Part shown: in pieces, positions 5,187 through 36,764 of the stretch
Layout: each line of letters starts with the position of its first letter
How positions within the stretch are numbered: position 1 is the first letter of the stretch
NCBI GenBank assembly: GCA_022824805.1
Contig: JAJDZE010000004.1
Coordinates: 3,577-67,576, forward strand
Length of the DNA stretch: 64,000 nt
Reading direction: 5' to 3'
Source: Acidimicrobiia bacterium
Lineage (GTDB): Bacteria; Actinomycetota; Acidimicrobiia; Acidimicrobiales; Poriferisodalaceae
The notes under the pieces: generated by a model
The model's input: only the letters and a program-made list of their open reading frames with translations
Database searches by the model: none
Told to the model about the DNA's origin: nothing
Program-made: the position numbers and the translations under genes

Positions 5187-5981
5187 GTGATGGGTGACGA
5201 GCGGGTGATGCACTTGGGCGTGACTGCCGCCGATCTGGGTGGGGCCACGCTGGCGATCGTGCCTGGCGACCCTGCCCGGGTGGCGAGGATCGCCGAGACG
5301 ATGGACGAGCCGGCGCACCTGGCCTCCGTCCGGGAGTTCACGACCTGTCGAGCGTCGATCGGCGGGCAACCGGTGGTGGTCTGCTCGACCGGCGTCGGCG
5401 GGCCGTCCACCTCGGTTGCGGTCGAGGAGCTGGCGCAGCTCGGCGTGCGGACGTTCCTGCGGGTCGGCACCACCGGGTCGATCCAACCTGATCTGCGGAT
5501 CGGTGACCTGGTCATCACCCAAGCCGCGGTCCGTCTCGACGGTGCGAGCCGGCATTTCGCTCCGCTGGAGTACCCGGCCGCGTCCTCGTTCGAGTGCACC
5601 CGGGCTCTGGTCGATGCCGCAGTCGCCCTCGACGCTTCCCATCAGGTGGGGATCACGGCGTCGAGCGACACCTTCTATCCCGGCCAGGAGCGCTACGACA
5701 CCGTGGCCGGCGACGTCGTCGGGTGGCTGCGGGGCAGCCTGGCCGAGTGGCGCCGGATCGGCGTGCTCAACTACGAGATGGAATCGGCGACGCTGTTCAC
5801 GATGTGTGCGGCCAACGGCTGGCGGGCCGGGTGCGTCGCCGGGGTGATCGCCCAGCGCACCGAGTCCGAGGCCGTCGTCGACGAGGCCCGCATCGCCGCC
5901 ACCGAGGAGCGGGCAGTCGGCGTGGTCGTCGAGGCCGCCCGCCGCCTGCTTCAACAGGAATCTCAGCGAGGTGAACCATGA
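5187..5981 (+). CDS. udp: Uridine phosphorylase
   Basis: Near-colinear with my recollection of E. coli Udp: ATLAIVPGDP.RV..IA, REFTT, VVVCSTGVGGPSTSVAVEELAQLGVRTFLRVGTTG, VRLDGAS.HFAPLE.PA, SSDTFYPGQERYDT, NYEMESATLFTMC. Confidence 0.9.
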   Translation: MMGDERVMHLGVTAADLGGATLAIVPGDPARVARIAETMDEPAHLASVREFTTCRASIGGQPVVVCSTGVGGPSTSVAVEELAQLGVRTFLRVGTTGSIQPDLRIGDLVITQAAVRLDGASRHFAPLEYPAASSFECTRALVDAAVALDASHQVGITASSDTFYPGQERYDTVAGDVVGWLRGSLAEWRRIGVLNYEMESATLFTMCAANGWRAGCVAGVIAQRTESEAVVDEARIAATEERAVGVVVEAARRLLQQESQRGEP

Positions 5982-7141
5982 GCAAGATCAGCCGCATCGT
6001 CGTTCAGGCCTACACGTATCAGCTTCGCGATGTCGGTCCGACGATCTGGACCTACTCACCGGGGGCAGAGACGAGCGTCTCGAAGTTCGTGGTGTCGATC
6101 GAGTCCGACGACGGGCTCACGGGCAGCTACGCACCCCACTACGGCGCAACCGAGCACGCCATGGCGCAGGTCTGCGACATGGCGCCGCTGCTGATCGGCA
6201 GGGACCCAGCGCAGCGCGAACGGATCTTCGAACTCCTCAAAATCCAGTTCCGGCACTTCGACAAGGTCGGCATCGCCGCACTCGACACCGCCCTGTGGGA
6301 CCTCGCAGGCAAGAAGCACGGCGCGTCGGTCAGCCAGTTGCTGGGCGGGTACCGGGAGCGGCTGCCGACGTACGCGAGCACGACTCCGGGCCAGCAGACT
6401 CCCGGCGGCCTCGACAGCATCGAGAAGTACGCAGACTTCGCCGAGGAATGCCAGGAACGCGGATTGCCGGGTTACAAGATTCACGGCTTCTTCGACGGCA
6501 GCGTGAGCAACGAGGTCGGCATCATGACCGCGGTTCGCGACCGTGTCGGGTCCTCGATGAAGCTGATGACCGACCCCGCATCGTCCTTGGGGTCGTTCAT
6601 GGATGCCGTGGAAGTCGGTCGGGCGTGCGACGACTTGGGATTCTTCTGGTACGAAGACCCCTACCGCGATGCCTCTTCGAGCGCCGCCGCTCACCAGCGC
6701 CTGCGGGAATTCATCCGCACGCCGATGCTCATCGCCGAGCACATCCGGGGATTCGAGCACAAGGCCGACTTCGTGCTGGCTCGTGGCACCGACATCATGC
6801 ACGTCGATCCCGAGTTGGACGGCGGCATCACCGGCACGATGAAGCTGGCCCACTTCTGCGACGCCATCGGCATGGAGGTTCAGCTCCACACGGCCGGCCC
6901 GATGCACCGGCACTGCATGTCGGCGATTCCCAACACGCTGTTCTACGAGCTCGGCCTGGTCAATCCCGACACATCGCAGAACTGCCTGCAGCCGCCGATC
7001 TACGCCGACGGCTACGGCGATGGCCTCGACGACGTGGGTGCCGACGGATGCGTCGCGGTGCCCACCGGCCCGGGGCTGGGCGTGGAATACGACTGGGACA
7101 AGATCAACGCCTGGGAAACGGCCAGGCGCACCTTCGAGTAA
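5978..7141 (+). CDS. Enolase-superfamily enzyme (mandelate racemase/muconate lactonizing family)
   Basis: 387 aa; GYKIHG, MKLMTDPAS, FWYEDP and IAEH are consistent with the metal-ligand and acid/base positions of MR/MLE enzymes. The ATGA start overlaps the udp stop. Confidence 0.85.
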   Translation: MSKISRIVVQAYTYQLRDVGPTIWTYSPGAETSVSKFVVSIESDDGLTGSYAPHYGATEHAMAQVCDMAPLLIGRDPAQRERIFELLKIQFRHFDKVGIAALDTALWDLAGKKHGASVSQLLGGYRERLPTYASTTPGQQTPGGLDSIEKYADFAEECQERGLPGYKIHGFFDGSVSNEVGIMTAVRDRVGSSMKLMTDPASSLGSFMDAVEVGRACDDLGFFWYEDPYRDASSSAAAHQRLREFIRTPMLIAEHIRGFEHKADFVLARGTDIMHVDPELDGGITGTMKLAHFCDAIGMEVQLHTAGPMHRHCMSAIPNTLFYELGLVNPDTSQNCLQPPIYADGYGDGLDDVGADGCVAVPTGPGLGVEYDWDKINAWETARRTFE

Positions 7142-7160: not shown

Positions 7161-8333
7161 TCAGCGACTTCGCTGTCGGGGGCGGGCCGTCGGGGACTCG
7201 GTGCCGAGGCCTCGCCCGCCGGGCTCGGGCGCTCGGCCGGCGGGAACGTGCTGGAACTCGCGGTTCACCCTGCGGACTGCCGGTGTGATGGCCACGGCGT
7301 AGCCGACCAGAGCGAGCAGGACCCGGCGAGCCGGCAGGAGCACGAAGCAGATGGCCCACGCCGCGGCGAACCCAATGAGTCGTGGTTTCATCGCGGACAC
7401 GCGAGCGGACGGCTTGTCGTCGGGGCGGCCGAGCGGGAATCGCTTCGGCTTGATGAACCATCCATGGGCGAACAGCTGAGCGACGAAGTACGGCCAGAAG
7501 GCGTCTGGGGCGTCGAGTGGGGGATCGGTGTCCCAAGCGGCGTCGGTGTCGCTGGCTAGCCCGGCCCGGACGCGAGACCACACATGCGGGGCGGTGACTC
7601 GACCAGAAGCGCCACCGCGGTTCTGATGGGTCGGGCGACAGTGCCACCGGTACAGCACTCGGCCGTCCTGGGCCAAGGCCAGAACGCCGGCCTGGAAGAG
7701 GCCGTTTGGGTGCGACGACCAGTGTCGTTCCAGCACCCCGGTGTCGCCGATATAGAGGTCGAACCGGTCATTCTCACGGCATTCGTCGAGGATCTCGTGG
7801 TGCGGATCGCCGACCGCTTGATATTCCAGTTCCCATGTGTCCTGCGCTTCGCTCGCAAGACTCTGGGGTTCACTGGTGACGGCGAAGATCTCGCCGCCCG
7901 CGGCCCGGATCTCCTCGATGACTCCCGATTTGCCGAAGCCACGCAACTCGCGGCGGCATGGAGGTCACCACAGCCCGCGGTAGAACACCAAGACGACAAA
8001 CTTGTGCTTGTCGAGTTGGGCGTTGAGCCACCCGGTGCGTACTCCGATCGGCGGGTCGAGCAGCGGCGGGATCAGCGGATCGTCAACTTCGGCGGCCGAC
8101 ACTCGGAAGCCCTCAGCTGATCTTTCGATCACCACCTGCTCACGGGCACAGACGTCGCCGTCGCACAGCACCAAACCCAGTTCGAAGGACCCAGCTCGCG
8201 CTCGTGCCACGGTGTCCTCGGCGTCGATAACTCCGGTGATCTCGAAGTGAGACTCTCGCGTTGCGTTGATCCACTCGAGCGCGGCTTCCGAAGCGGCCTG
8301 AAGCTCAGTGGGGATTTCTTCGCTCACGTTCAT
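7161..8333 (-). CDS. PRX_like2 (AhpC/TSA-type) thiol oxidoreductase, probable selenoprotein with in-frame UGA (Sec) at 7967-7965; C-terminal membrane segment
   Basis: ORFs 7965..8333 and 7161..7946 are in the same frame, separated only by TGA at 7967-7965. Read-through gives KFVVLVFYRGLW-U-PPCRRELRGFGKSGV..., the FYRG.WCP.C redox motif with TGA at the first Cys. The track start of the lower ORF is an artificial TTG. A stem-loop follows the TGA. Confidence 0.65.
7938..7957 (-). promoter_or_regulatory. Candidate bacterial SECIS hairpin of selenoprotein 1
   Basis: mRNA reads UGA CCUCCAU GCCGC(C)GC GAGUU GCGUGGC: 7 bp (one G-U, one bulged C) and a 5-nt loop starting with G. The stem begins 8 nt after the UGA and the loop 15 nt after it. 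Folded by eye only. Confidence 0.4.
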
Positions 8334-15475: not shown

Positions 15476-17419
15476 TCATGCGTTGGGAAGCCCTCGCAGG
15501 AAGCCGCGCTCGGTCAGCTTGCGCACGATGGCGTCGATGCACTCGTCGACGTCCTGGGCTGAGGTGTCGACGCGCAGGTCGGCATCGGTCGGCTTGTCGA
15601 AGTCTGCGGAGACGCCGGGGAATCGGGGGATCTCGCCGCTGTCGGCCATCGCGTACAGGCCGTGGGGGTCACGCTCGCGGCACACCTCGATGGGTGTGTC
15701 CACGAAGACCTCGACATAGCGGTCCACGCCCACTAGGTCACGGGCTCGTTGCCGCACGTCACGGTCGGGGGCCACCATTGCGGCGATCGCGATCAGGCCC
15801 TGGCCGTTGACGAGCCGTGCCACTTCCGAAACCCGGCGCAGGTTCTCCGAGCGTTCCTGGGTGCTGAAGCCCAAGTCACGGGAGATGCCCATGCGCACGT
15901 TTTCGCCGTCGAGACGGATCGACACCTTGCCCCGATCGAACAGCTCCCGCTCGAGTGCTGTGGCAAGGGTGGACTTGCCGGCGGCCGTGAGCCCCGTGAG
16001 CAGGATGGTGCACGGCTGCTGGCCGAAGCGGATGGCCCGCTCCGCATCGCTGATCTCCGAGCGCTGGCGAACCAGTGCCGCATCGGGTGTGCGATCCCAC
16101 GCAGATGCCGCGCCCAGGATCATGCCTGCGCCCACTGTCGCGTTCGTGAGCCGGTCGACGAGCACGAACGAACCGGTCGCCCGGTTGGCGCTGTAGGGGT
16201 CGAAGGCGAGCTCCCGGTCTGAGGTGATGACGCAGTGCCCGATGTCGTTGAGCCCGAGTCCCGGGGCCTGCTCGTGTGCGCCGGTATTGATGTCGACGCG
16301 GTGCCGGAGGCTCCGGATGGCGCAGTTGGAAACCGTGTTGGCCGTCTGCAGCAGGTAGGAGCTGCCGGGCTCGGCGCCGGTTTCCGACATCCACACCACC
16401 ATGGCGTCGAGGTCGTGCGCTCGCTGCGGTTCGCTTCCTGGGGTCACCAGCAGATCGCCCCGGCTGACGTCGATGTCGTCGTCGAGCGTCACCGTGACCG
16501 CCCGACCCGGCCCGGCCACATCGAGGTCGCCGTCGAAGGTCGCAATCCGCTCCACCGTCGAGCTGAGCCCCGACGGCAGCGCCACCACCTCATCACCGGG
16601 CCGGAGCACTCCCGAGGCGATGGTGCCCGCGTACCCGCGGAAGTCTGCATCGGGGCGGGAGACCAGCTGCACCGGCATGCGGAAGTGCTCCAGGTCGACG
16701 CTGGCATCGATGTCCACCGTCTCGAGGTGCTCCAGCAGCGGCGGACCGTCGAACCAGCCCAGATTGCCGCTGGCGTCGACGACGTTGTCACCTGCCAGCG
16801 CGGACATCGGCAGGAAGTACGGCTGTCCGAACCCGAGCTCCTTGGCGAATGAGCGGTAGTCCTCGCAGATCTCGGTAAAGCGATCCTGCGACCAGCCGAC
16901 GAGATCCATCTTGTTGACCGCCACGACGACTCGACCGATGCCCAGCAGGCTGGCGATGTAGCTGTGGCGCTTGGTCTGTGCCAGCACGCCGTGGCGGGCG
17001 TCGATGAGGATGACCGCCAGATCGCAGGTCGACGCACCCGTCGCCATGTTGCGGGTGTACTGGGGGTGCCCCGGAGTGTCGGCGATGATGAACGTGCGGC
17101 GGGCCGTGGAGAAGTAGCGGTAGGCCACGTCGATGGTGATGCCCTGCTCGCGCTCGGCGCGCAGGCCGTCCATGAGCAGAGCCAAGTCGACCCCGTCGCC
17201 CGCCGAGCCGTGGGCAGCCGAGTCGGCTTCGAGGCTGGCGAGCACGTCCTCGTAGATCAACTGCGCGTCGTGCAGCAGCCGCCCGATCAGCGTCGATTTT
17301 CCGTCGTCGACGCTGCCGCACGTCAGCAGGCGCAGCAGGTCCTTCTGCCGATGGGAGGCCAGGTACGCCTCGACATCCGACACGTCGAAGCCGTCACGAG
17401 CGGGCAGCTCGGCGGCCAT
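15476..17419 (-). CDS. cysNC: Sulfate adenylyltransferase subunit 1 fused to an APS-kinase-like domain (CysNC)
   Basis: GTPase motifs [14 protein letters not shown] and NKMD, plus a C-terminal kinase-like domain [14 protein letters not shown]...DGENVR...[14 protein letters not shown]. Confidence 0.9.
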
Positions 17420-18342
17420 CAGAAGTACCCCTCACGCTTCTTCTGCTCCATGGAGCCCGACTGGTCGAAGTCGATCACCCGGCCTTCCCGCTCGGAGCGG
17501 GTTGCCACCAGCATCTCGTCGATGATCTCGGGCAGCGTGGTGGCCGTCGATTCGATGGCCCCCGACAGCGGGTAGCAGCCCAATGTGCGGAAACGCACCA
17601 GCCGCTGTTCGGCCACCTCGCCCTCGTCGAACACGAACCGGTCGTCGTCCACCATGATCAGCACGCCGTCGCGTTCCACCACCGGCCGTTCGGCCGCAAA
17701 GTACAGCGGCACGATGGGGATCTGCTCGACGTGGATGTACTGCCACACGTCGAGCTCGGTCCAGTTGCTCATCGGGAACACCCGGATCGACTCGCCCTGG
17801 TTGACCCGGCCGTTGTAGAGATTCCACAGCTCGGGCCGCTGGTTCTTGGGATCCCAGCGATGATGGGCATCGCGGAAGCTGAACACCCGCTCCTTGGCCC
17901 GCGACTTCTCCTCGTCGCGCCGGGCGCCGCCGAACGCCGCATCGAACCGGCCGGCGTCGAGCGCCTGGCGCAGCGCCTGAGTCTTCATGATGTCGGTGTA
18001 GTTCTTCGACCCGTGGTCGAAGGGGTTGATGCCCTGCGCGACCCCCTCCGCGTTGGTGTGCACGATCAGCTCGAAGCCGATCTCGTCGGCCATGCGCTGG
18101 CGGAAGACGATCATCTCGCGGAACTTCCACGTCGTGTCCACGTGCAGCAGCGGGAACGGGATCTTGCCGGGGAAGAAGGCCTTGCGGGCGAGATGCAGCA
18201 GCACCGAGGAGTCCTTGCCGATCGAGTACAGCATGACCGGCCGCTCGCACTGGGCGACCACTTCGCGCATGATCCCGATCGCCTCGGATTCGAGCTGCTG
18301 CAGGTGGGTCAGCCGCAGCTCGGCGGGCAGCGTCGCGCTCAT
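17419..18342 (-). CDS. cysD: Sulfate adenylyltransferase subunit 2
   Basis: Start [28 protein letters not shown] at 18342. Contains [15 protein letters not shown] (PAPS reductase/ATP-PPase fold). The stop overlaps the cysNC ATG (TGATG). Confidence 0.9.
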
Positions 18343-20798
18343 TGCGTACCCCTCGATTGCTCCACCATGGCCTGGCTGGTTTCCCACAGCATGGCCCCGT
18401 TTGCGGGGTCCGCGGCGCTCTCGGACACCTGCTTGCGGTGCATCAGGTGCAGGTAGAGCCCGGTGGAACTGCCGGCCTCGGGCGCGCAGCACAACCAGAC
18501 GACGGGCTCGACGGCTTCTTCGGGCGACCGGAACAGCCGTCGAAGCAGCGGGTCGACGACCGATCGGAGAGGCGCAGGCGCACCGCGGGTGATGTTCGTG
18601 GCGACGCCGCCCGGGCACAGTGCATGCACCGCCACCTCGACCCCGTCACCGTCGGGGCCGTCGCCGTCGAGGCCCTCCACGCCATCGCCATCGCCAACGC
18701 CAACGTCGCCTTCGCCGGGGCGATGCAGCCGACGCGACAGCTCCGTGGCGTAGGTGCACAGCACAAGCTTGCTCAAGCCGTAGTGCCGCATGCTGTCTTT
18801 CATGCCATAGGGGGCGAACTCGCCGAGGTGATCGAAATCGATGGCGGCACTGGATCGGTGGGCTTCCGAAGAGACGAACACGATCCGTGGCGGGTCACCC
18901 TCTGGAACTGCCGGAACAACGACACCGTCGGACAGCCAGCGGTCGATCATCACCCGGTTGGCCAGGAAATGGACGGCGAACATCTCGTCGTAGCCCTGCG
19001 CTGTCTGCCTCGCAGCGGGGGTCATGAGGCCCGCGTTCATCAGCGCGATGTCGACGCGGACGCCACGATCACGCAGTTCGTCGCAGCAGCGGTGCACCGA
19101 CCGGAGATCGGCAAGGTCGACCTCGACCAGCTCCACGGTCTCCGAACCGGATTCGCGCGTGATCTCCTCGCAGATGCCGTGATGGCCGGGGCGGCAGGCC
19201 AGGATCATGCGGCCGCCGCGCCGCGCGAGCTCTACAGCGGCTGCCCTGCCGAGGCCGCTGTTGGCCCCGGTCACCAGGCAGGTCTTGCCGTCGATCCTCA
19301 CGTCGTCGGGGACTGGCTCGATGTCTGGCGACTTGGGATTTCGGAGGTCACGGAAGGCGGTTGCGACAGCACCGATGAAGCCGGTGTCGCCTATAGCGCG
19401 TGCCGGCTGTTCGCCGACCCAAGGCGTCTCGGCAGAGCGAACCACGACGGCCTGCTCACCAGCCGCGTGCATCTTGCGCTCTGTCGAAGGTGGCGACGGG
19501 GGATCGGCGCTGGGCGACGGGTGCTGGTCGTCTTCGAACTGCACGGCAAAGGCGTCGCGGTATGCAGCGAACGTCTCGTCGATGTCGGGTCCCGTCAGCC
19601 CGAAGTCTTCGAGCCGGTAGTCGTGCTTGCCGAATCGGTTCTGAGGGTTCGCCGCCATGAACTGCGCGGCCGCCCGCTCGGCCGTCTCGTCGAAGCCGAT
19701 GCCGGCCGTCTCGCAGATCTGCCGAGCTTCGTTGATCGGATCGGCGATCAGGTCGTAGTACGACACATCGACAAATGAAGCACCGCCAGGCTCGTCGGCC
19801 GGCTGCCTCGCCTGAGCTTCGGCCCGAGCCTGCATGGCCCGCTCGACCATCCGGTGCGTCTTGTAGTGCCAGTGCCGCCCGATCTCGACAGCATCGACCG
19901 AATCGCTGAAGATGCCGTGGCCGTGGGCGACCATGCTGCAGAACGACGCCAACGTGACACGGGGGTCACGGTGGGCTTGGACCACGGTGGCGCCCCCGAA
20001 CACCCTGCAGAACGCGTCGAGGAACTCCAGGTGATGCGGCGTCTTGAGCACCCACGCGCCGGCAGGCCGCTGCCATGCCAGCACCTGCAGGACCCGGCGG
20101 AGGAACTCGTAGTTCTGGGTGTGGTCTTGTTCTTCCAGCCAGCGGGAATAGCTCGGCACCGTCATGGTGGCTTCGGCTGTCTGGCTCATGAAGTTCAGGT
20201 CGAGCAGCAGGACGTCCTCTTCGGCCTGGTCGTGGCCCACCGGATGGATCGCCTGAAAGTCGGGTGCCAGGTACGAGACGGTTCGCTGGGCGAGCATCGC
20301 ACGCCACCTGCGGGACCGCTCGGAGCGTTCTGCGGTCTCGCCCCTCGCCACCGGAACGAGCGCTTCGGCGCCGGTGATGCCCCGGATCTGCGGGTGCGAG
20401 CACAACAGCCGCTGCAACAGGGTTGTGCCGGCGCGCTGCAATCCGGTGATCAGGATGATCGTGCCCAGATCGATGTTCTCGATCTCGGGGTGCCGCGTCA
20501 CCAAATCCTGAATCCGCAAGCGCTGCACCAGCGCATCGGTGAGCCGTGATTTCTGGATCAGGCGGCCGGCCGCACTCAGGCGGGCTTCGGCGTTGATCGA
20601 GGTGACCAGCACCTCGAGAGCTTCGGCGTGACCGTCGTCGCCGAAGTCGCTGAGACCGGTCTTGCGCCGTGCGGCGCTGCGCAGTGCGCCGATCTCGAGA
20701 CGTTCTGACAGTCCAAAGTTCGCCCCGGCCCTGCCGAGCCGGTTGAAGGCTCGCACCCCCAGCGGCCGGTAGGGGTGCTCGTAGTCCGTGGAAGTCAC
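18339..20798 (-). CDS. Sulfotransferase (N-terminal) fused to a short-chain dehydrogenase/reductase (C-terminal)
   Basis: The N-terminal half has [19 protein letters not shown] (5'-PSB-like P-loop of sulfotransferases). The C-terminal half has [21 protein letters not shown] and YGLSKL (SDR). ATGA overlap with cysD. Confidence 0.8.
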
Positions 20799-34583: not shown

Positions 34584-35609
34584 ATGTCGAAACCCGCGCT
34601 TGGACTGTTGCTTGGCTTTGAGGACACGATGGCCGACTTTGTCGAGCTGGCCCGTGAGGGCGAGGCCGCGGGGATGGACTCGATGTACACGGTCGAGGCC
34701 GGGCGCAGCGCGTTCGTGTCGGCTGCCGCGGTCATCGCGGCGACCGAGCGGGTCACCGTCGGCACCTACATCGCGAATGCGTATGCCCGGGAGCCGTGGC
34801 TCACGGCGATCGCTGCCCGAGATCTCGACGAGATGAGCGGCGGGCGGTTCACCCTCGGCCTCGGCACGGGCAACCGCCACTTCAACGAGTGGTACATGGG
34901 CGTCGACGACTTCCGGCCGCTCGGCAAGCTGCGCGACTACATCGAGATCGTGCGCGGCGCCGTGGCTGGCCGTGCGGGAGAGCCGGTGCGCTACGAGGGC
35001 GAGCACCACCGGATCCGCTGGCGGGCGAGCTGGGAGCCGACCCGGCCGTCGATACCGGTGTACCTGTCGGCATCGGGACCCAAGATGGTGCGGCTCGCGG
35101 GCGAGGTGGCCGACGGGGTCGGCGTCGGCGTGATGTCGTCGGTCGAATTCATGCGCGACATCGTCCGCCCCGCAGCCCAGCAGGCCGCCGGGGAGGCAGG
35201 CCGAGACCCCGACGGCGTGGGGTTCCTGATGGGGTCGTTCCTGAGCGTCAACGACGACGAAGGGCTGGCCCGCAATGCCGCCAAGGCCACCATCTGCGGG
35301 CTGTTCCACCCGGTACCTCACCCGTACTACGACTCACAGCTGCGTCAGCTCGGCTACGCCGAGTTTGCTGACGCCGCAACCCGGCTGATGCCCGAAGGCC
35401 ACATGCGCGAGGCGATCAGCCTGGTGCCCGACGAGGTGGTCGACACCATGACCATCACCGGGACGCCCGCCCAGTGCGCCAACCGCATCGCCGACTACAG
35501 CGGCCTGATCGCAGAGATCATCCTGTTCCGAGTCCCGCAACGCACCGACCGGCCAGGCCTCGCCGGCTACGAGTCCATGTTCGAGGTCATCTCACTCGCC
35601 AGCACCTGA
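34584..35609 (+). CDS. LLM class (F420/FMN-dependent) oxidoreductase
   Basis: GMDSMYTVEAGRSAF...GRFTLGLGTG is typical of the luciferase-like family. Confidence 0.8.
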   Translation: MSKPALGLLLGFEDTMADFVELAREGEAAGMDSMYTVEAGRSAFVSAAAVIAATERVTVGTYIANAYAREPWLTAIAARDLDEMSGGRFTLGLGTGNRHFNEWYMGVDDFRPLGKLRDYIEIVRGAVAGRAGEPVRYEGEHHRIRWRASWEPTRPSIPVYLSASGPKMVRLAGEVADGVGVGVMSSVEFMRDIVRPAAQQAAGEAGRDPDGVGFLMGSFLSVNDDEGLARNAAKATICGLFHPVPHPYYDSQLRQLGYAEFADAATRLMPEGHMREAISLVPDEVVDTMTITGTPAQCANRIADYSGLIAEIILFRVPQRTDRPGLAGYESMFEVISLAST

Positions 35610-36764
35610 GTCGGTACCGGCACGGCGGTCGATCAGACGTTGGAAGTGGTGTGCCCCGTTCATCGCGGGCACCCGGCCGACGCCGGGGCCCATGTCGCCG
35701 AGCACCGGGAAGCCCGCCTCGACGCGGAAGCTGAAGGGCATCGACTCGGGGAGGAAGCACTCGACGTCGTCACAGGCTTGCCAGCGGACCAGGCCGCTGA
35801 TGGTGACGAAGCGCCCGTCGTCGTCCTTCTGCATGTTCCGTGCGTTCTGTGCAACCGGCAGCCGCAGGACGACATCGCCCTCGTACACGGCGAGGGTGTC
35901 GCCCGAACCAGACAGCGTCAACGGTGAGGTCGGCGGCATCACCGGCTCGTAGGACAGGATCCCGTCGTTGTCGTCGAGCTCGATTGCGGCGGCCACCAAG
36001 CCGTCGGGTACGGGCTCGCTGTACAGATGCTGACCCTCGGGAACCCGGAACGTGGCGACGATCTGGCGTGTGACGCCCATCGGCAGGCGATCGCCGTCGA
36101 TGGCCACGTCCACTGACATCCGATCGGGCGGCCGCTCGATTTCCGGTACATCGAACTCGGTGCCCAGGGCTGCAGCGAGCAGCTGCTCGGGGCCCGGCCG
36201 GATGGCGAAGTTGTGCTCGAAGAACTTCGCCACAACGATGCCGTCTGCATCGACGACGTACGACCCCGGGAACGGCAGGCCGTACCACGGGTGGTCATCG
36301 GGCGGGATCAGCGTGTTGAGAATCCCGAACGACCGGATCACCTCGCTGTCGGGATCCGACAGCAGCGTGAACGTGGTGCCGTGAGCCTCCGCGTAGTCAG
36401 CCAGCGCATCAGGTTCGTCGTAGCTCAGCGCATACAGCCGGACTCCCGCTGCCCGGTAGGCGTCCATGCCTCGTTCCAGCTCGACCAGCTGGGTGCGGCA
36501 GGGCGGTCACCACACAGCCGAGCGATAGAACACCACCACCGCCGGCTGTCCATCGCGGTCGTCGTGCAGGTCCAGCTGACGACCGGTGTGGTCGGTGGCC
36601 ACGATGTCGGGCAGTCGGGTACCGACCTCAGGACCAGTGGGGAAGTCTCCACGCGGGATCCGTCGGCTTCCATGACCTGGCGCCTCAGGCATGTTGAAGC
36701 CTTCGACGTCCTCGTAGTACGGCCCGCTTGTCGGGCCGCCCCTGGTGTCGAGTTCGATTTCCAT
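35592..36764 (-). CDS. PRX_like2 thiol oxidoreductase with DsbD-N-like C-terminal domain, probable selenoprotein with in-frame UGA (Sec) at 36509-36507
   Basis: ORFs 36507..36893 and 35592..36467 share a frame, separated by TGA plus 13 sense codons. Read-through gives PAVVVFYRSAVW-U-PPCRTQLVELERGMDAYRAAGVRLYALSYDEP... A perfect hairpin follows the TGA. The C-terminus VRWQACDDVECFLPE resembles a DsbD N-terminal-type domain. Start at 36764 (MEIELD) chosen over 36893, whose extension looks non-coding. Confidence 0.65.
36467..36500 (-). promoter_or_regulatory. Candidate bacterial SECIS element of selenoprotein 2
   Basis: mRNA reads UGA CCGCCC UGCC GCAC CCAGCU GGUCG AGCUGG AACGA GGCA. It has a perfect 6-bp upper stem, a 5-nt loop GGUCG (G in the first positions, loop starting 20 nt after the UGA), a 4-bp lower stem and an internal loop. 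Folded by eye only. Confidence 0.5.

What the first reader, a model, noticed from the sequence alone, without database searches (positions are those of the whole stretch)
7161..8333. In-frame TGA at the first Cys of a CxxC redox motif (W-U-P-P-C): probable selenocysteine-containing PRX_like2 protein split by ORF calling
ORF 7965..8333 ends ...KFVVLVFYRGLW-TGA. The next codons, in the same frame, read PPCRRELRGFGKSGVIEEIRAAGGEIFAVTSEP... This reconstitutes the FYRG.WC-P-x-C motif of peroxiredoxin-like-2/AhpC-TSA thioredoxin-fold proteins, with TGA exactly where the nucleophilic Cys belongs.

The downstream half has no credible start of its own; the track used a TTG. A stem-loop GCCGC(C)GC-GAGUU-GCGUGGC starts 8 nt after the UGA, with its apical loop (first base G) 15 nt downstream, which is compatible with bacterial SECIS spacing.

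TGA is clearly used as a normal stop elsewhere in the window, so this is site-specific recoding, not a variant genetic code. Prx-like UxxC selenoproteins are known from metagenomic surveys but are uncommon in Actinomycetota.
Basis: partly seen in the sequence, partly recalled or inferred. Interest (0 to 1): 0.75.

Follow-up and report, generated by a model that had tools for sequence, protein, structure and literature searches.

The report
Selenocysteine gene split by annotation
This is one gene for a membrane-anchored redox protein whose in-frame TGA almost certainly encodes selenocysteine; the family was already catalogued from ocean metagenomes in 2008, so the call is correct but not new.

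Summary
On the minus strand, one 390-codon frame (8333..7161) has a single in-frame TGA at 7967..7965, in the motif FYRGLW-TGA-PPC. Pfam AhpC/TSA matches across the TGA. Ten full-length homologues have Cys at that column. All 81 gene copies in the 80 closest genome loci, from at least seven phyla, keep TGA there. Both halves are under purifying selection (dN/dS about 0.1-0.2). A 6-bp hairpin (GCCGCG/AGUUG/CGUGGC) starts 10 nt after the UGA. It is paired in 99.6% of cells across 77 sequences and has compensatory changes, including at a synonymous Arg wobble position. TGA is the main ordinary stop in the window, so this is site-specific recoding.

The family is already known. Orthologues with the same N-terminal domain and WUPPCR motif are listed as "Prx-like 1" selenoproteins in the 2008 Global Ocean Sampling (GOS) selenoproteome dataset. 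This copy is from a sponge-associated Acidimicrobiia lineage (Ca. Poriferisodalis). Public records still split the gene into two hypothetical proteins. A second UGA-interrupted Prx-like gene lies at 35592..36764. The Sec machinery genes were not in the sequence I could reach.

The parts
7161..8333 (-). Complete selenoprotein gene: 390 codons plus the stop TGA at 7163..7161; start ATG at 8333..8331
   Evidence: Single open frame apart from one TGA. tblastn matches residues 1-390 in related genomes. dN/dS is 0.08-0.24 upstream and 0.10-0.17 downstream of the TGA.
7965..7967 (-). In-frame UGA read as selenocysteine (residue 123, first position of the U-P-P-C redox motif)
   Evidence: TGA in all 81 copies in 80 related loci. 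Cys in the 10 full-length Cys-form homologues.
7938..7954 (-). SECIS-like hairpin: 5' arm GCCGCG 7954..7949, loop AGUUG 7948..7944, 3' arm CGUGGC 7943..7938; it encodes part of C-R-R-E-L-R-G
   Evidence: 99.6% of cells paired in 77 distinct sequences. Pair 29-39 shows 6 pair types; pair 28-40 is UA 44 / CG 27. No shuffle (0/500) reaches the observed score, and slid registers pair in at most 56% of cells. Lower-stem extensions are not conserved.
7956..7958 (-). Resolving Cys126 of the UxxC motif
   Evidence: Invariant in 92/92 sequences.
8070..8333 (-). N-terminal alpha+beta domain (about residues 1-88) with invariant Cys57 (8165..8163) and Cys62 (8150..8148)
   Evidence: No Pfam hit. AF2 models show a helix plus a four-strand sheet. 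No significant PDB fold match. Both Cys are invariant in 92/92.
7548..8036 (-). Thioredoxin-fold (AhpC/TSA, Prx-like) domain, about residues 100-262, interrupted by the UGA
   Evidence: PF00578 E = 5e-10 over residues 107-183. The model's closest solved folds are PrxQ/BCP and ResA, TM 0.60-0.66.
7263..7394 (-). C-terminal hydrophobic helical hairpin (about residues 314-357), a predicted membrane anchor; it follows an amphipathic helix at about residues 279-296
   Evidence: Kyte-Doolittle score above 1.4 for 19-residue windows starting at residues 314-338. The homologue model has two long helices at 324-351 and 355-379.
7944..7946 (-). TTG used by ORF callers as the start of the downstream fragment: an artefact, not a start codon
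   Evidence: It lies in the hairpin loop and codes the conserved Leu of E-L-R. The six codons between the TGA and this TTG (PPCR.E) are conserved, with synonymous wobble variation.

Best explanation
Window 8333..7161 (minus strand) is one gene for a 390-residue selenoprotein. The UGA at 7967..7965 is recoded to selenocysteine. The signal is a short hairpin in the mRNA that starts 10 nt after the UGA. By analogy with characterised bacterial SECIS elements, this hairpin would recruit SelB carrying Sec-tRNA(Sec) to the ribosome (inferred).

The product has four parts: an N-terminal alpha+beta domain with two invariant cysteines; a thioredoxin-fold (AhpC/TSA, Prx-like) domain with a thioredoxin-type W-U-P-P-C motif; an amphipathic helix; and a C-terminal helical hairpin that probably anchors it in the membrane. 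There is no signal peptide, so the catalytic domain probably faces the cytoplasm.

The likely chemistry is thiol/selenol-disulfide exchange. The selenolate of U123 attacks an oxidised substrate (a disulfide, or possibly a hydroperoxide). A selenenylsulfide then forms with C126. It is re-reduced by a thioredoxin-type donor or through the C57/C62 pair.

Shown here: the recoding signature and the domain architecture. Inferred: topology, substrate and electron path.
For: - One open frame with a single TGA, and PF00578 spans that TGA.
- Cys occupies the TGA column in 10 full-length homologues.
- TGA is present in all 81 copies in the 80 closest genome loci: Acidimicrobiia, Alpha- and Gammaproteobacteria, Myxococcota, Binatia, Thermoanaerobaculia, Opitutales and Hydrogenedentota.
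- dN/dS is 0.08-0.24 upstream and 0.10-0.17 downstream of the TGA in 22 close relatives.
- The codons just after the TGA (PPCR.E) are conserved, with synonymous variation at wobble positions.
- The hairpin is paired in 99.6% of cells, with two covarying pairs; one involves the synonymous third base of an Arg codon.
- In four Cys-form genes that Arg is Leu, and the two invariant inner pairs, C30-G38 and G31-C37, do not survive intact in any of them.
- 24 of 32 confident ORFs in the window stop at TGA.
- Orthologous reads are listed as 'Prx-like 1' selenoproteins in GOS Dataset S1; 'WUPPCR' occurs 30 times.
- A second gene in the same window (35592..36764) shows the same signature.
- Architecture comes from AF2 (pLDDT 86).
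Against: - No selA, selB, selD or tRNA-Sec was found in the window or in about 1.5 Mb of flanks of related loci. The rest of this genome could not be searched.
- Support for the machinery is indirect. A sponge Acidimicrobiia bin has SelA/B/D (Slaby 2017, Table S4), and Actinomarina, in the same class, has selABCD.
- The hairpin is only 6 bp and is not significant in the single sequence (z = -1.2).
- No Rfam family matches.
- The 80 loci are those most similar to the query, so they under-sample the more distant Cys forms.
- Function, topology and reductant are not tested.
Confidence: 0.92

Rival explanations
1. The TGA is a true stop. The locus would then encode two separate proteins: a 122-aa N-terminal protein and a 261-aa protein started at TTG 7946. 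This is how public annotations call it.
For: Gene callers split the locus this way in all the Sec-form relatives. The C-terminal fragments are about 240 aa and the N-terminal fragments about 122 aa, for example adjacent 'hypothetical proteins' MK489_14450 and MK489_14445. No Sec machinery was seen in the reachable sequence.
Against: The split would cut a thioredoxin fold between strand beta-1 and its active-site helix, and would remove both redox residues from the downstream product. The six codons between the TGA and the TTG are conserved as protein, with synonymous changes. The TTG lies in the hairpin loop and is a conserved Leu codon. Full-length Cys forms exist as single proteins.
Confidence: 0.03
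2. The UGA is read through, but by a standard near-cognate tRNA (Trp, Cys or Arg) rather than Sec-tRNA, or the organism uses a variant genetic code.
For: Sec machinery was not demonstrated for this genome. Sequence alone cannot tell which residue is inserted.
Against: TGA ends 24 of 32 confident ORFs in the window, so the code is standard. The site is the nucleophilic position of a CxxC motif where homologues have Cys. It is followed by a covarying hairpin at SECIS spacing. Both are the classical selenoprotein signature. The family is already catalogued as a selenoprotein family.
Confidence: 0.03
3. The TGA is a sequencing or assembly error, or the gene is a recent pseudogene.
For: One related metagenome contig (L093) does carry an indel at exactly this site. 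This shows that errors or decay can occur here.
Against: The same TGA is present in 81 copies from independently assembled genomes, many of them long-read complete chromosomes. An identical protein fragment is found on an independent metagenome scaffold. dN/dS is about 0.1-0.2 on both sides.
Confidence: 0.01

Closest known systems
'Prx-like 1' selenoprotein family of the Sargasso Sea/GOS selenoproteomes (Zhang & Gladyshev; PMC2398784), also called 'Prx-like thiol:disulfide oxidoreductase' (PF00578, UxxC) in the 2026 review PMC13188914
   Same: It has a PF00578 hit and a UxxC motif with Sec first. GOS reads such as JCVI_READ_1056998 and JCVI_READ_3057796 share the N-terminal domain (LILCDGEICAREQ), the YYRGLWUPPCRFELRSY motif, GDPHHE, RVLYRW and the C-terminal hydrophobic region.
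   Different: The GOS family is a broad bin of many unrelated-looking Prx-like UxxC reads with no taxonomy or architecture given. This copy comes from a sponge-associated Acidimicrobiia genome (Ca. Poriferisodalis). Here the three-part architecture, the hairpin covariation and the taxonomic spread are worked out.
Thioredoxin-like thiol-disulfide oxidoreductases ResA/TlpA (W-C-x-P-C)
   Same: It shares the Trx fold and a W-[C/U]-x-P-C active-site motif on the first helix. ResA is among the best sequence and fold matches.
   Different: ResA and TlpA are extracytoplasmic, anchored by an N-terminal helix, and use Cys. This protein has no signal peptide, a C-terminal helical hairpin, an extra N-terminal Cys-pair domain, and Sec. 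The sequence match is not significant (E about 0.4).
Peroxiredoxin Q / BCP (true peroxiredoxins)
   Same: These are the best structural matches to the Trx-fold domain (TM 0.60-0.64 on the target). They belong to the same Pfam family.
   Different: The peroxidatic P-x-x-x-T/S-x-x-C motif is absent. Here the sequence is V-F-Y-R-G-L-W-U, with no Pro at -7 and no Thr/Ser at -3. The redox motif is of the thioredoxin CxxC type.
E. coli fdhF-type bacterial SECIS
   Same: It is a stem-loop in the coding sequence just 3' of the UGA. G is the second loop base, and 16 nt separate the UGA from the loop, at the lower edge of the range I recall being used by bSECISearch (from memory, not checked here).
   Different: It is much smaller: only a 6-bp stem and a 5-nt loop are conserved, with no bulged U. 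SelB binding is untested.

Membership tests
Bacterial selenoprotein gene (UGA-Sec recoding) | In-frame UGA inside a conserved ORF, with protein-level conservation on both sides | tested here: met
Bacterial selenoprotein gene (UGA-Sec recoding) | Homologues carry Cys (or Sec) at the same column | tested here: met
   Ten Cys forms and 82 TGA forms; the column is invariant C/U in 92/92.
Bacterial selenoprotein gene (UGA-Sec recoding) | Stem-loop immediately downstream of the UGA, with a G in the apical loop | tested here: met
   A 6-bp stem starts 10 nt after the UGA, with loop AGUUR. 99.6% of cells are paired and two pairs covary. It is degraded in the Cys forms. It is not significant from the single sequence alone.
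Bacterial selenoprotein gene (UGA-Sec recoding) | selA, selB, selC (tRNA-Sec) and selD present in the same genome | not testable with these tools
   They are absent from the 64-kb window and from the flanks of 90 related loci. Indirect support: a second Sec-type gene in the window, and SelA/B/D in a sponge Acidimicrobiia bin.
Bacterial selenoprotein gene (UGA-Sec recoding) | Selenium demonstrated in the protein | not testable with these tools
   This needs an experiment.
Prx-like 1 / Prx-like thiol:disulfide oxidoreductase selenoproteins (GOS) | pfam00578 domain with a UxxC motif | tested here: met
   PF00578 scores 39.8 bits (cutoff 26) across the TGA. The motif is U-P-P-C.
Prx-like 1 / Prx-like thiol:disulfide oxidoreductase selenoproteins (GOS) | Orthologues listed by the authors under that family | tested here: met
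   Dataset S1, section '#Prx-like 1': 'WUPPCR' occurs 30 times and 'GDPHHE' 6 times, with near-full-length orthologues.
Peroxiredoxin sensu stricto | Peroxidatic P-x-x-x-T/S-x-x-C(U) motif | tested here: not met
   The sequence is V-F-Y-R-G-L-W-U. The same holds in all homologues.
SelL-related redox protein (NCBIfam NF040769) | Score above the curated cutoff (120 bits) | tested here: not met
   23.8 bits.
   CDD is not available here. The related Pfam family AhpC-TSA_2 (PF13911) gives no hit for this protein.

The most novel reading that the evidence does not exclude
Within the loosely defined 'Prx-like 1' bin, this three-part protein would be a distinct subfamily that almost always uses Sec. 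It combines a Cys-pair N-domain, a W-U-P-P-C thioredoxin fold and a C-terminal membrane hairpin. It has not been described individually, has no NCBIfam model, and is split into two hypothetical proteins across public databases. Its minimal 6-bp SECIS would dictate the protein sequence: the invariant Arg in E-L-R, and covarying residue pairs R/L..G versus S/F..S. The protein would act on a membrane-associated oxidised substrate in marine and sponge-associated bacteria of many phyla.
Probability: 0.45. Interest if true: 0.4.

Novelty: new member of a known kind. Interest (0 to 1): 0.3.

Why it matters
The practical value is in annotation. Public protein databases hold this gene as two unrelated 'hypothetical proteins': over 100 clusters of C-terminal fragments and over 70 of N-terminal fragments. 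No NCBIfam model covers it. A family-specific model plus the hairpin would repair it in many marine and sponge-symbiont genomes.

Biologically, it adds sponge-associated Acidimicrobiia to the confirmed carriers of Prx-like UxxC selenoproteins. With the second such gene 28 kb away, it implies that this lineage keeps the Sec machinery. It is also a clean example of an mRNA hairpin constraining the encoded peptide.

It does not open a new question. The selenoprotein family has been known since the 2005-2008 metagenomic selenoproteome surveys.

Tried and rejected
- **Sec machinery.** I searched the window and all fetched flanks with tblastn, using E. coli SelA, SelB and SelD fetched as L081 and L082, and with ARAGORN for tRNA-Sec. 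The only hit was CysN/CysC at 15476..17419.
- **Rfam.** No match at gathering thresholds, and only a chance hit at E <= 10.
- **Lower-stem extensions of the hairpin.** Two registers were tested and neither is conserved; the added pairs are paired in about 60% of cells.
- **Conserved gene neighbourhood.** None is shared across phyla. Synteny holds only within Ca. Poriferisodalis.
- **Mixed alignment.** Aligning N-terminal and C-terminal fragments together misaligned (A3) and was discarded.
- **PDB searches.** The sequence search gave nothing significant. The N-domain fold search gave only weak cystatin/monellin-like topology matches (E > 0.1).
- **Literature.** A search for 'Poriferisodalis' found no paper.

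Full report
**Observation.** On the minus strand, the frame that starts at ATG 8333 runs for 390 codons to the stop at 7163..7161. It has one internal TGA. The TGA is at 7967..7965; the ORF end quoted as 7965 includes the stop codon. With Cys in place of the stop, Pfam AhpC/TSA (PF00578) matches residues 107-183 at E = 5e-10, which runs straight across the TGA. NCBIfam gives only sub-threshold hits, the best being SelL-related redox protein at 23.8 bits against a cutoff of 120. TGA is not reassigned in this genome: 24 of 32 long ORFs with high GC3 end in TGA.

**Homologues.**
- A search of the large protein collection returned about ten full-length proteins of 387-401 aa. They read FYRGFW-C-PPCR, so Cys sits at the TGA column.
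- More than a hundred clusters of about 240 aa begin just after the motif.
- A search with the upstream 122-aa ORF returned only proteins of about 122 aa, annotated as hypothetical.
- Both searches therefore show the same gene split at the same place in many assemblies.

**DNA census.**
- A scan of one genome per species returned 80 loci. The closest, at 85-95% amino-acid identity, are Ca. Poriferisodalis and other Acidimicrobiia MAGs, so the window comes from that sponge-associated lineage.
- The other loci are Alpha- and Gammaproteobacteria, Myxococcota, Binatia, Thermoanaerobaculia, Opitutales and Hydrogenedentota.
- All 81 gene copies carry TGA at the same column (one locus has a tandem pair).
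- The 80 loci are the best of 184 matches. They favour relatives of the query and under-sample the more distant Cys forms.
- Compared with the window, 22 close relatives give dN/dS of 0.08-0.24 upstream and 0.10-0.17 downstream of the TGA. Both halves are therefore translated and under selection in the same frame.
- The codons directly after the TGA (Pro-Pro-Cys-Arg-x-Glu) are conserved, while their third positions vary freely. This rules out initiation at the TTG that ORF callers use.

**RNA signal.**
- In an ungapped alignment of 77 distinct sequences, a 6-bp stem with a 5-nt loop (AGUUR) starts 10 nt after the UGA.
- In the window it is GCCGCG (7954..7949), AGUUG, CGUGGC (7943..7938).
- 99.6% of cells are paired. 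One pair shows six different pair types, and its 3' partner is the synonymous third base of an Arg codon. Another pair alternates U-A (44) and C-G (27).
- No shuffle out of 500 reaches the observed covariation, and slid registers pair in at most 56% of cells.
- Extensions of the stem are not conserved.
- From the single sequence alone the hairpin is unremarkable (z = -1.2), and Rfam has no match.
- In four Cys-form genes the Arg of E-L-R is Leu, and the homologous columns pair only 4, 4, 6 (three of them G-U) and 5 of 6. This fits a structure that is needed only for Sec decoding, though the sample is small.
- Because the stem lies in coding sequence, it ties residue +5 to residue +9: R or L goes with G, and S or F goes with S.

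**Already known.** The 2008 GOS selenoproteome paper (PMC2398784) lists 'Prx-like 1' (pfam00578, UxxC) as a major family, with 225 selenoprotein reads. Its Dataset S1 contains 'WUPPCR' 30 times under that heading. The reads include near-full-length orthologues with the same N-terminal domain, GDPHHE and RVLYRW motifs and C-terminal hydrophobic tail. A 2026 review lists 'Prx-like thiol:disulfide oxidoreductase' (PF00578; UxxC) among high-confidence predicted selenoproteins. The finding is therefore a correct detection of a member of a known selenoprotein family.

**What the protein looks like.**
- An AlphaFold model of the Cys homologue P0006 has mean pLDDT 86 and pTM 0.78.
- It shows an N-terminal helix packed on a four-strand sheet, then a poorly ordered linker, a thioredoxin fold, a short amphipathic helix and two long C-terminal helices.
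- The hydrophobic stretch in the window protein covers residues 314-357.
- The thioredoxin-fold domain is closest to PrxQ/BCP and ResA, with TM 0.60-0.66 on the target.
- The N-domain has no Pfam hit and no significant solved relative.
- Across 92 sequences, C57, C62, U/C123 and C126 are invariant.
- The peroxiredoxin motif PxxxT/SxxC is absent. The active site is the thioredoxin type, W-U-P-P-C.
- I infer a membrane-anchored, cytoplasm-facing selenol/thiol-disulfide oxidoreductase. Topology, substrate and reductant are untested.
- No gene neighbourhood is conserved across phyla.

**Sec machinery.**
- The window has no tRNA gene. tblastn with E. coli SelA, SelB and SelD found nothing in the window or in any fetched flank. 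The one GTPase hit is CysN/CysC.
- The rest of the genome was out of reach, so this refutation test remains open.
- A second gene in the window (35592..36764, minus strand) gives indirect support. It is AhpC/TSA plus DsbD_N, with VVVFYRSAVW-TGA-PPCRTQLVEL and a hairpin CCAGCU/GGUCG/AGCUGG. All 120 best homologues are truncated at that TGA. The TGA and the hairpin, with a G-C to A-U compensatory change, persist in marine Acidimicrobiales at 63% identity.
- The literature also gives indirect support. Slaby et al. 2017 found SelA and SelB enriched in sponge symbiont bins. Their Table S4 shows SelA, SelB and SelD in Acidimicrobiia bin76. Actinomarina, in the same class, carries selA, selB, selC and selD.

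**Verdict.** It is a new member of a known kind. Its value is mainly for annotation. Interest is modest.

Noticed in passing
window 35592..36764 (-); TGA 36509..36507; hairpin 36492..36476: This is a second UGA-interrupted Prx-like gene (AhpC/TSA plus a DsbD_N domain), reading VVVFYRSAVW-TGA-PPCRTQLVEL. A 6-bp hairpin (CCAGCU/GGUCG/AGCUGG) starts 14 nt after the UGA. All 120 best database homologues are truncated at the TGA. The TGA and the hairpin are kept in marine Acidimicrobiales relatives, with one compensatory G-C to A-U change.
   Followed up: partly
L043 9171 and 10364; L009 and L019 (both from NZ_OZ240249.1): The main gene is duplicated in some genomes. A Pseudomonadales MAG has a tandem pair, and one Ca. 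Poriferisodalis chromosome has two unlinked copies. Every copy has the TGA.
   Followed up: no
L093 2150..2215 (protein P0005): In this metagenome contig the A of the TGA is missing (tggtg-cccccc). The frame runs shifted through an intact hairpin sequence and is restored about 45 nt later (net -3 nt). The result is W-C-P-P-A-A-P-S-C instead of W-U-P-P-C-R. It is either a real Sec-loss variant or an assembly error.
   Followed up: partly
window 15476..18618 (-): These are sulfate-assimilation genes: a CysN/CysC fusion (647 aa) directly downstream of a CysD-like gene. The CysN GTPase domain was the only hit to the E. coli SelB probe.
   Followed up: partly
window 5978..7141 (+): An enolase-superfamily gene (MR_MLE_N/C) converges on the 3' end of the selenoprotein gene. 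This arrangement is conserved only within Ca. Poriferisodalis.
   Followed up: partly
GenBank annotations of relatives (e.g. Myxococcota MK489_14450 / MK489_14445; RefSeq 'redoxin domain-containing protein' on NZ_OZ241968.1): Both Sec-type genes are annotated in public records as truncated or split proteins. No NCBIfam model reaches its cutoff for the main family.
   Followed up: partly
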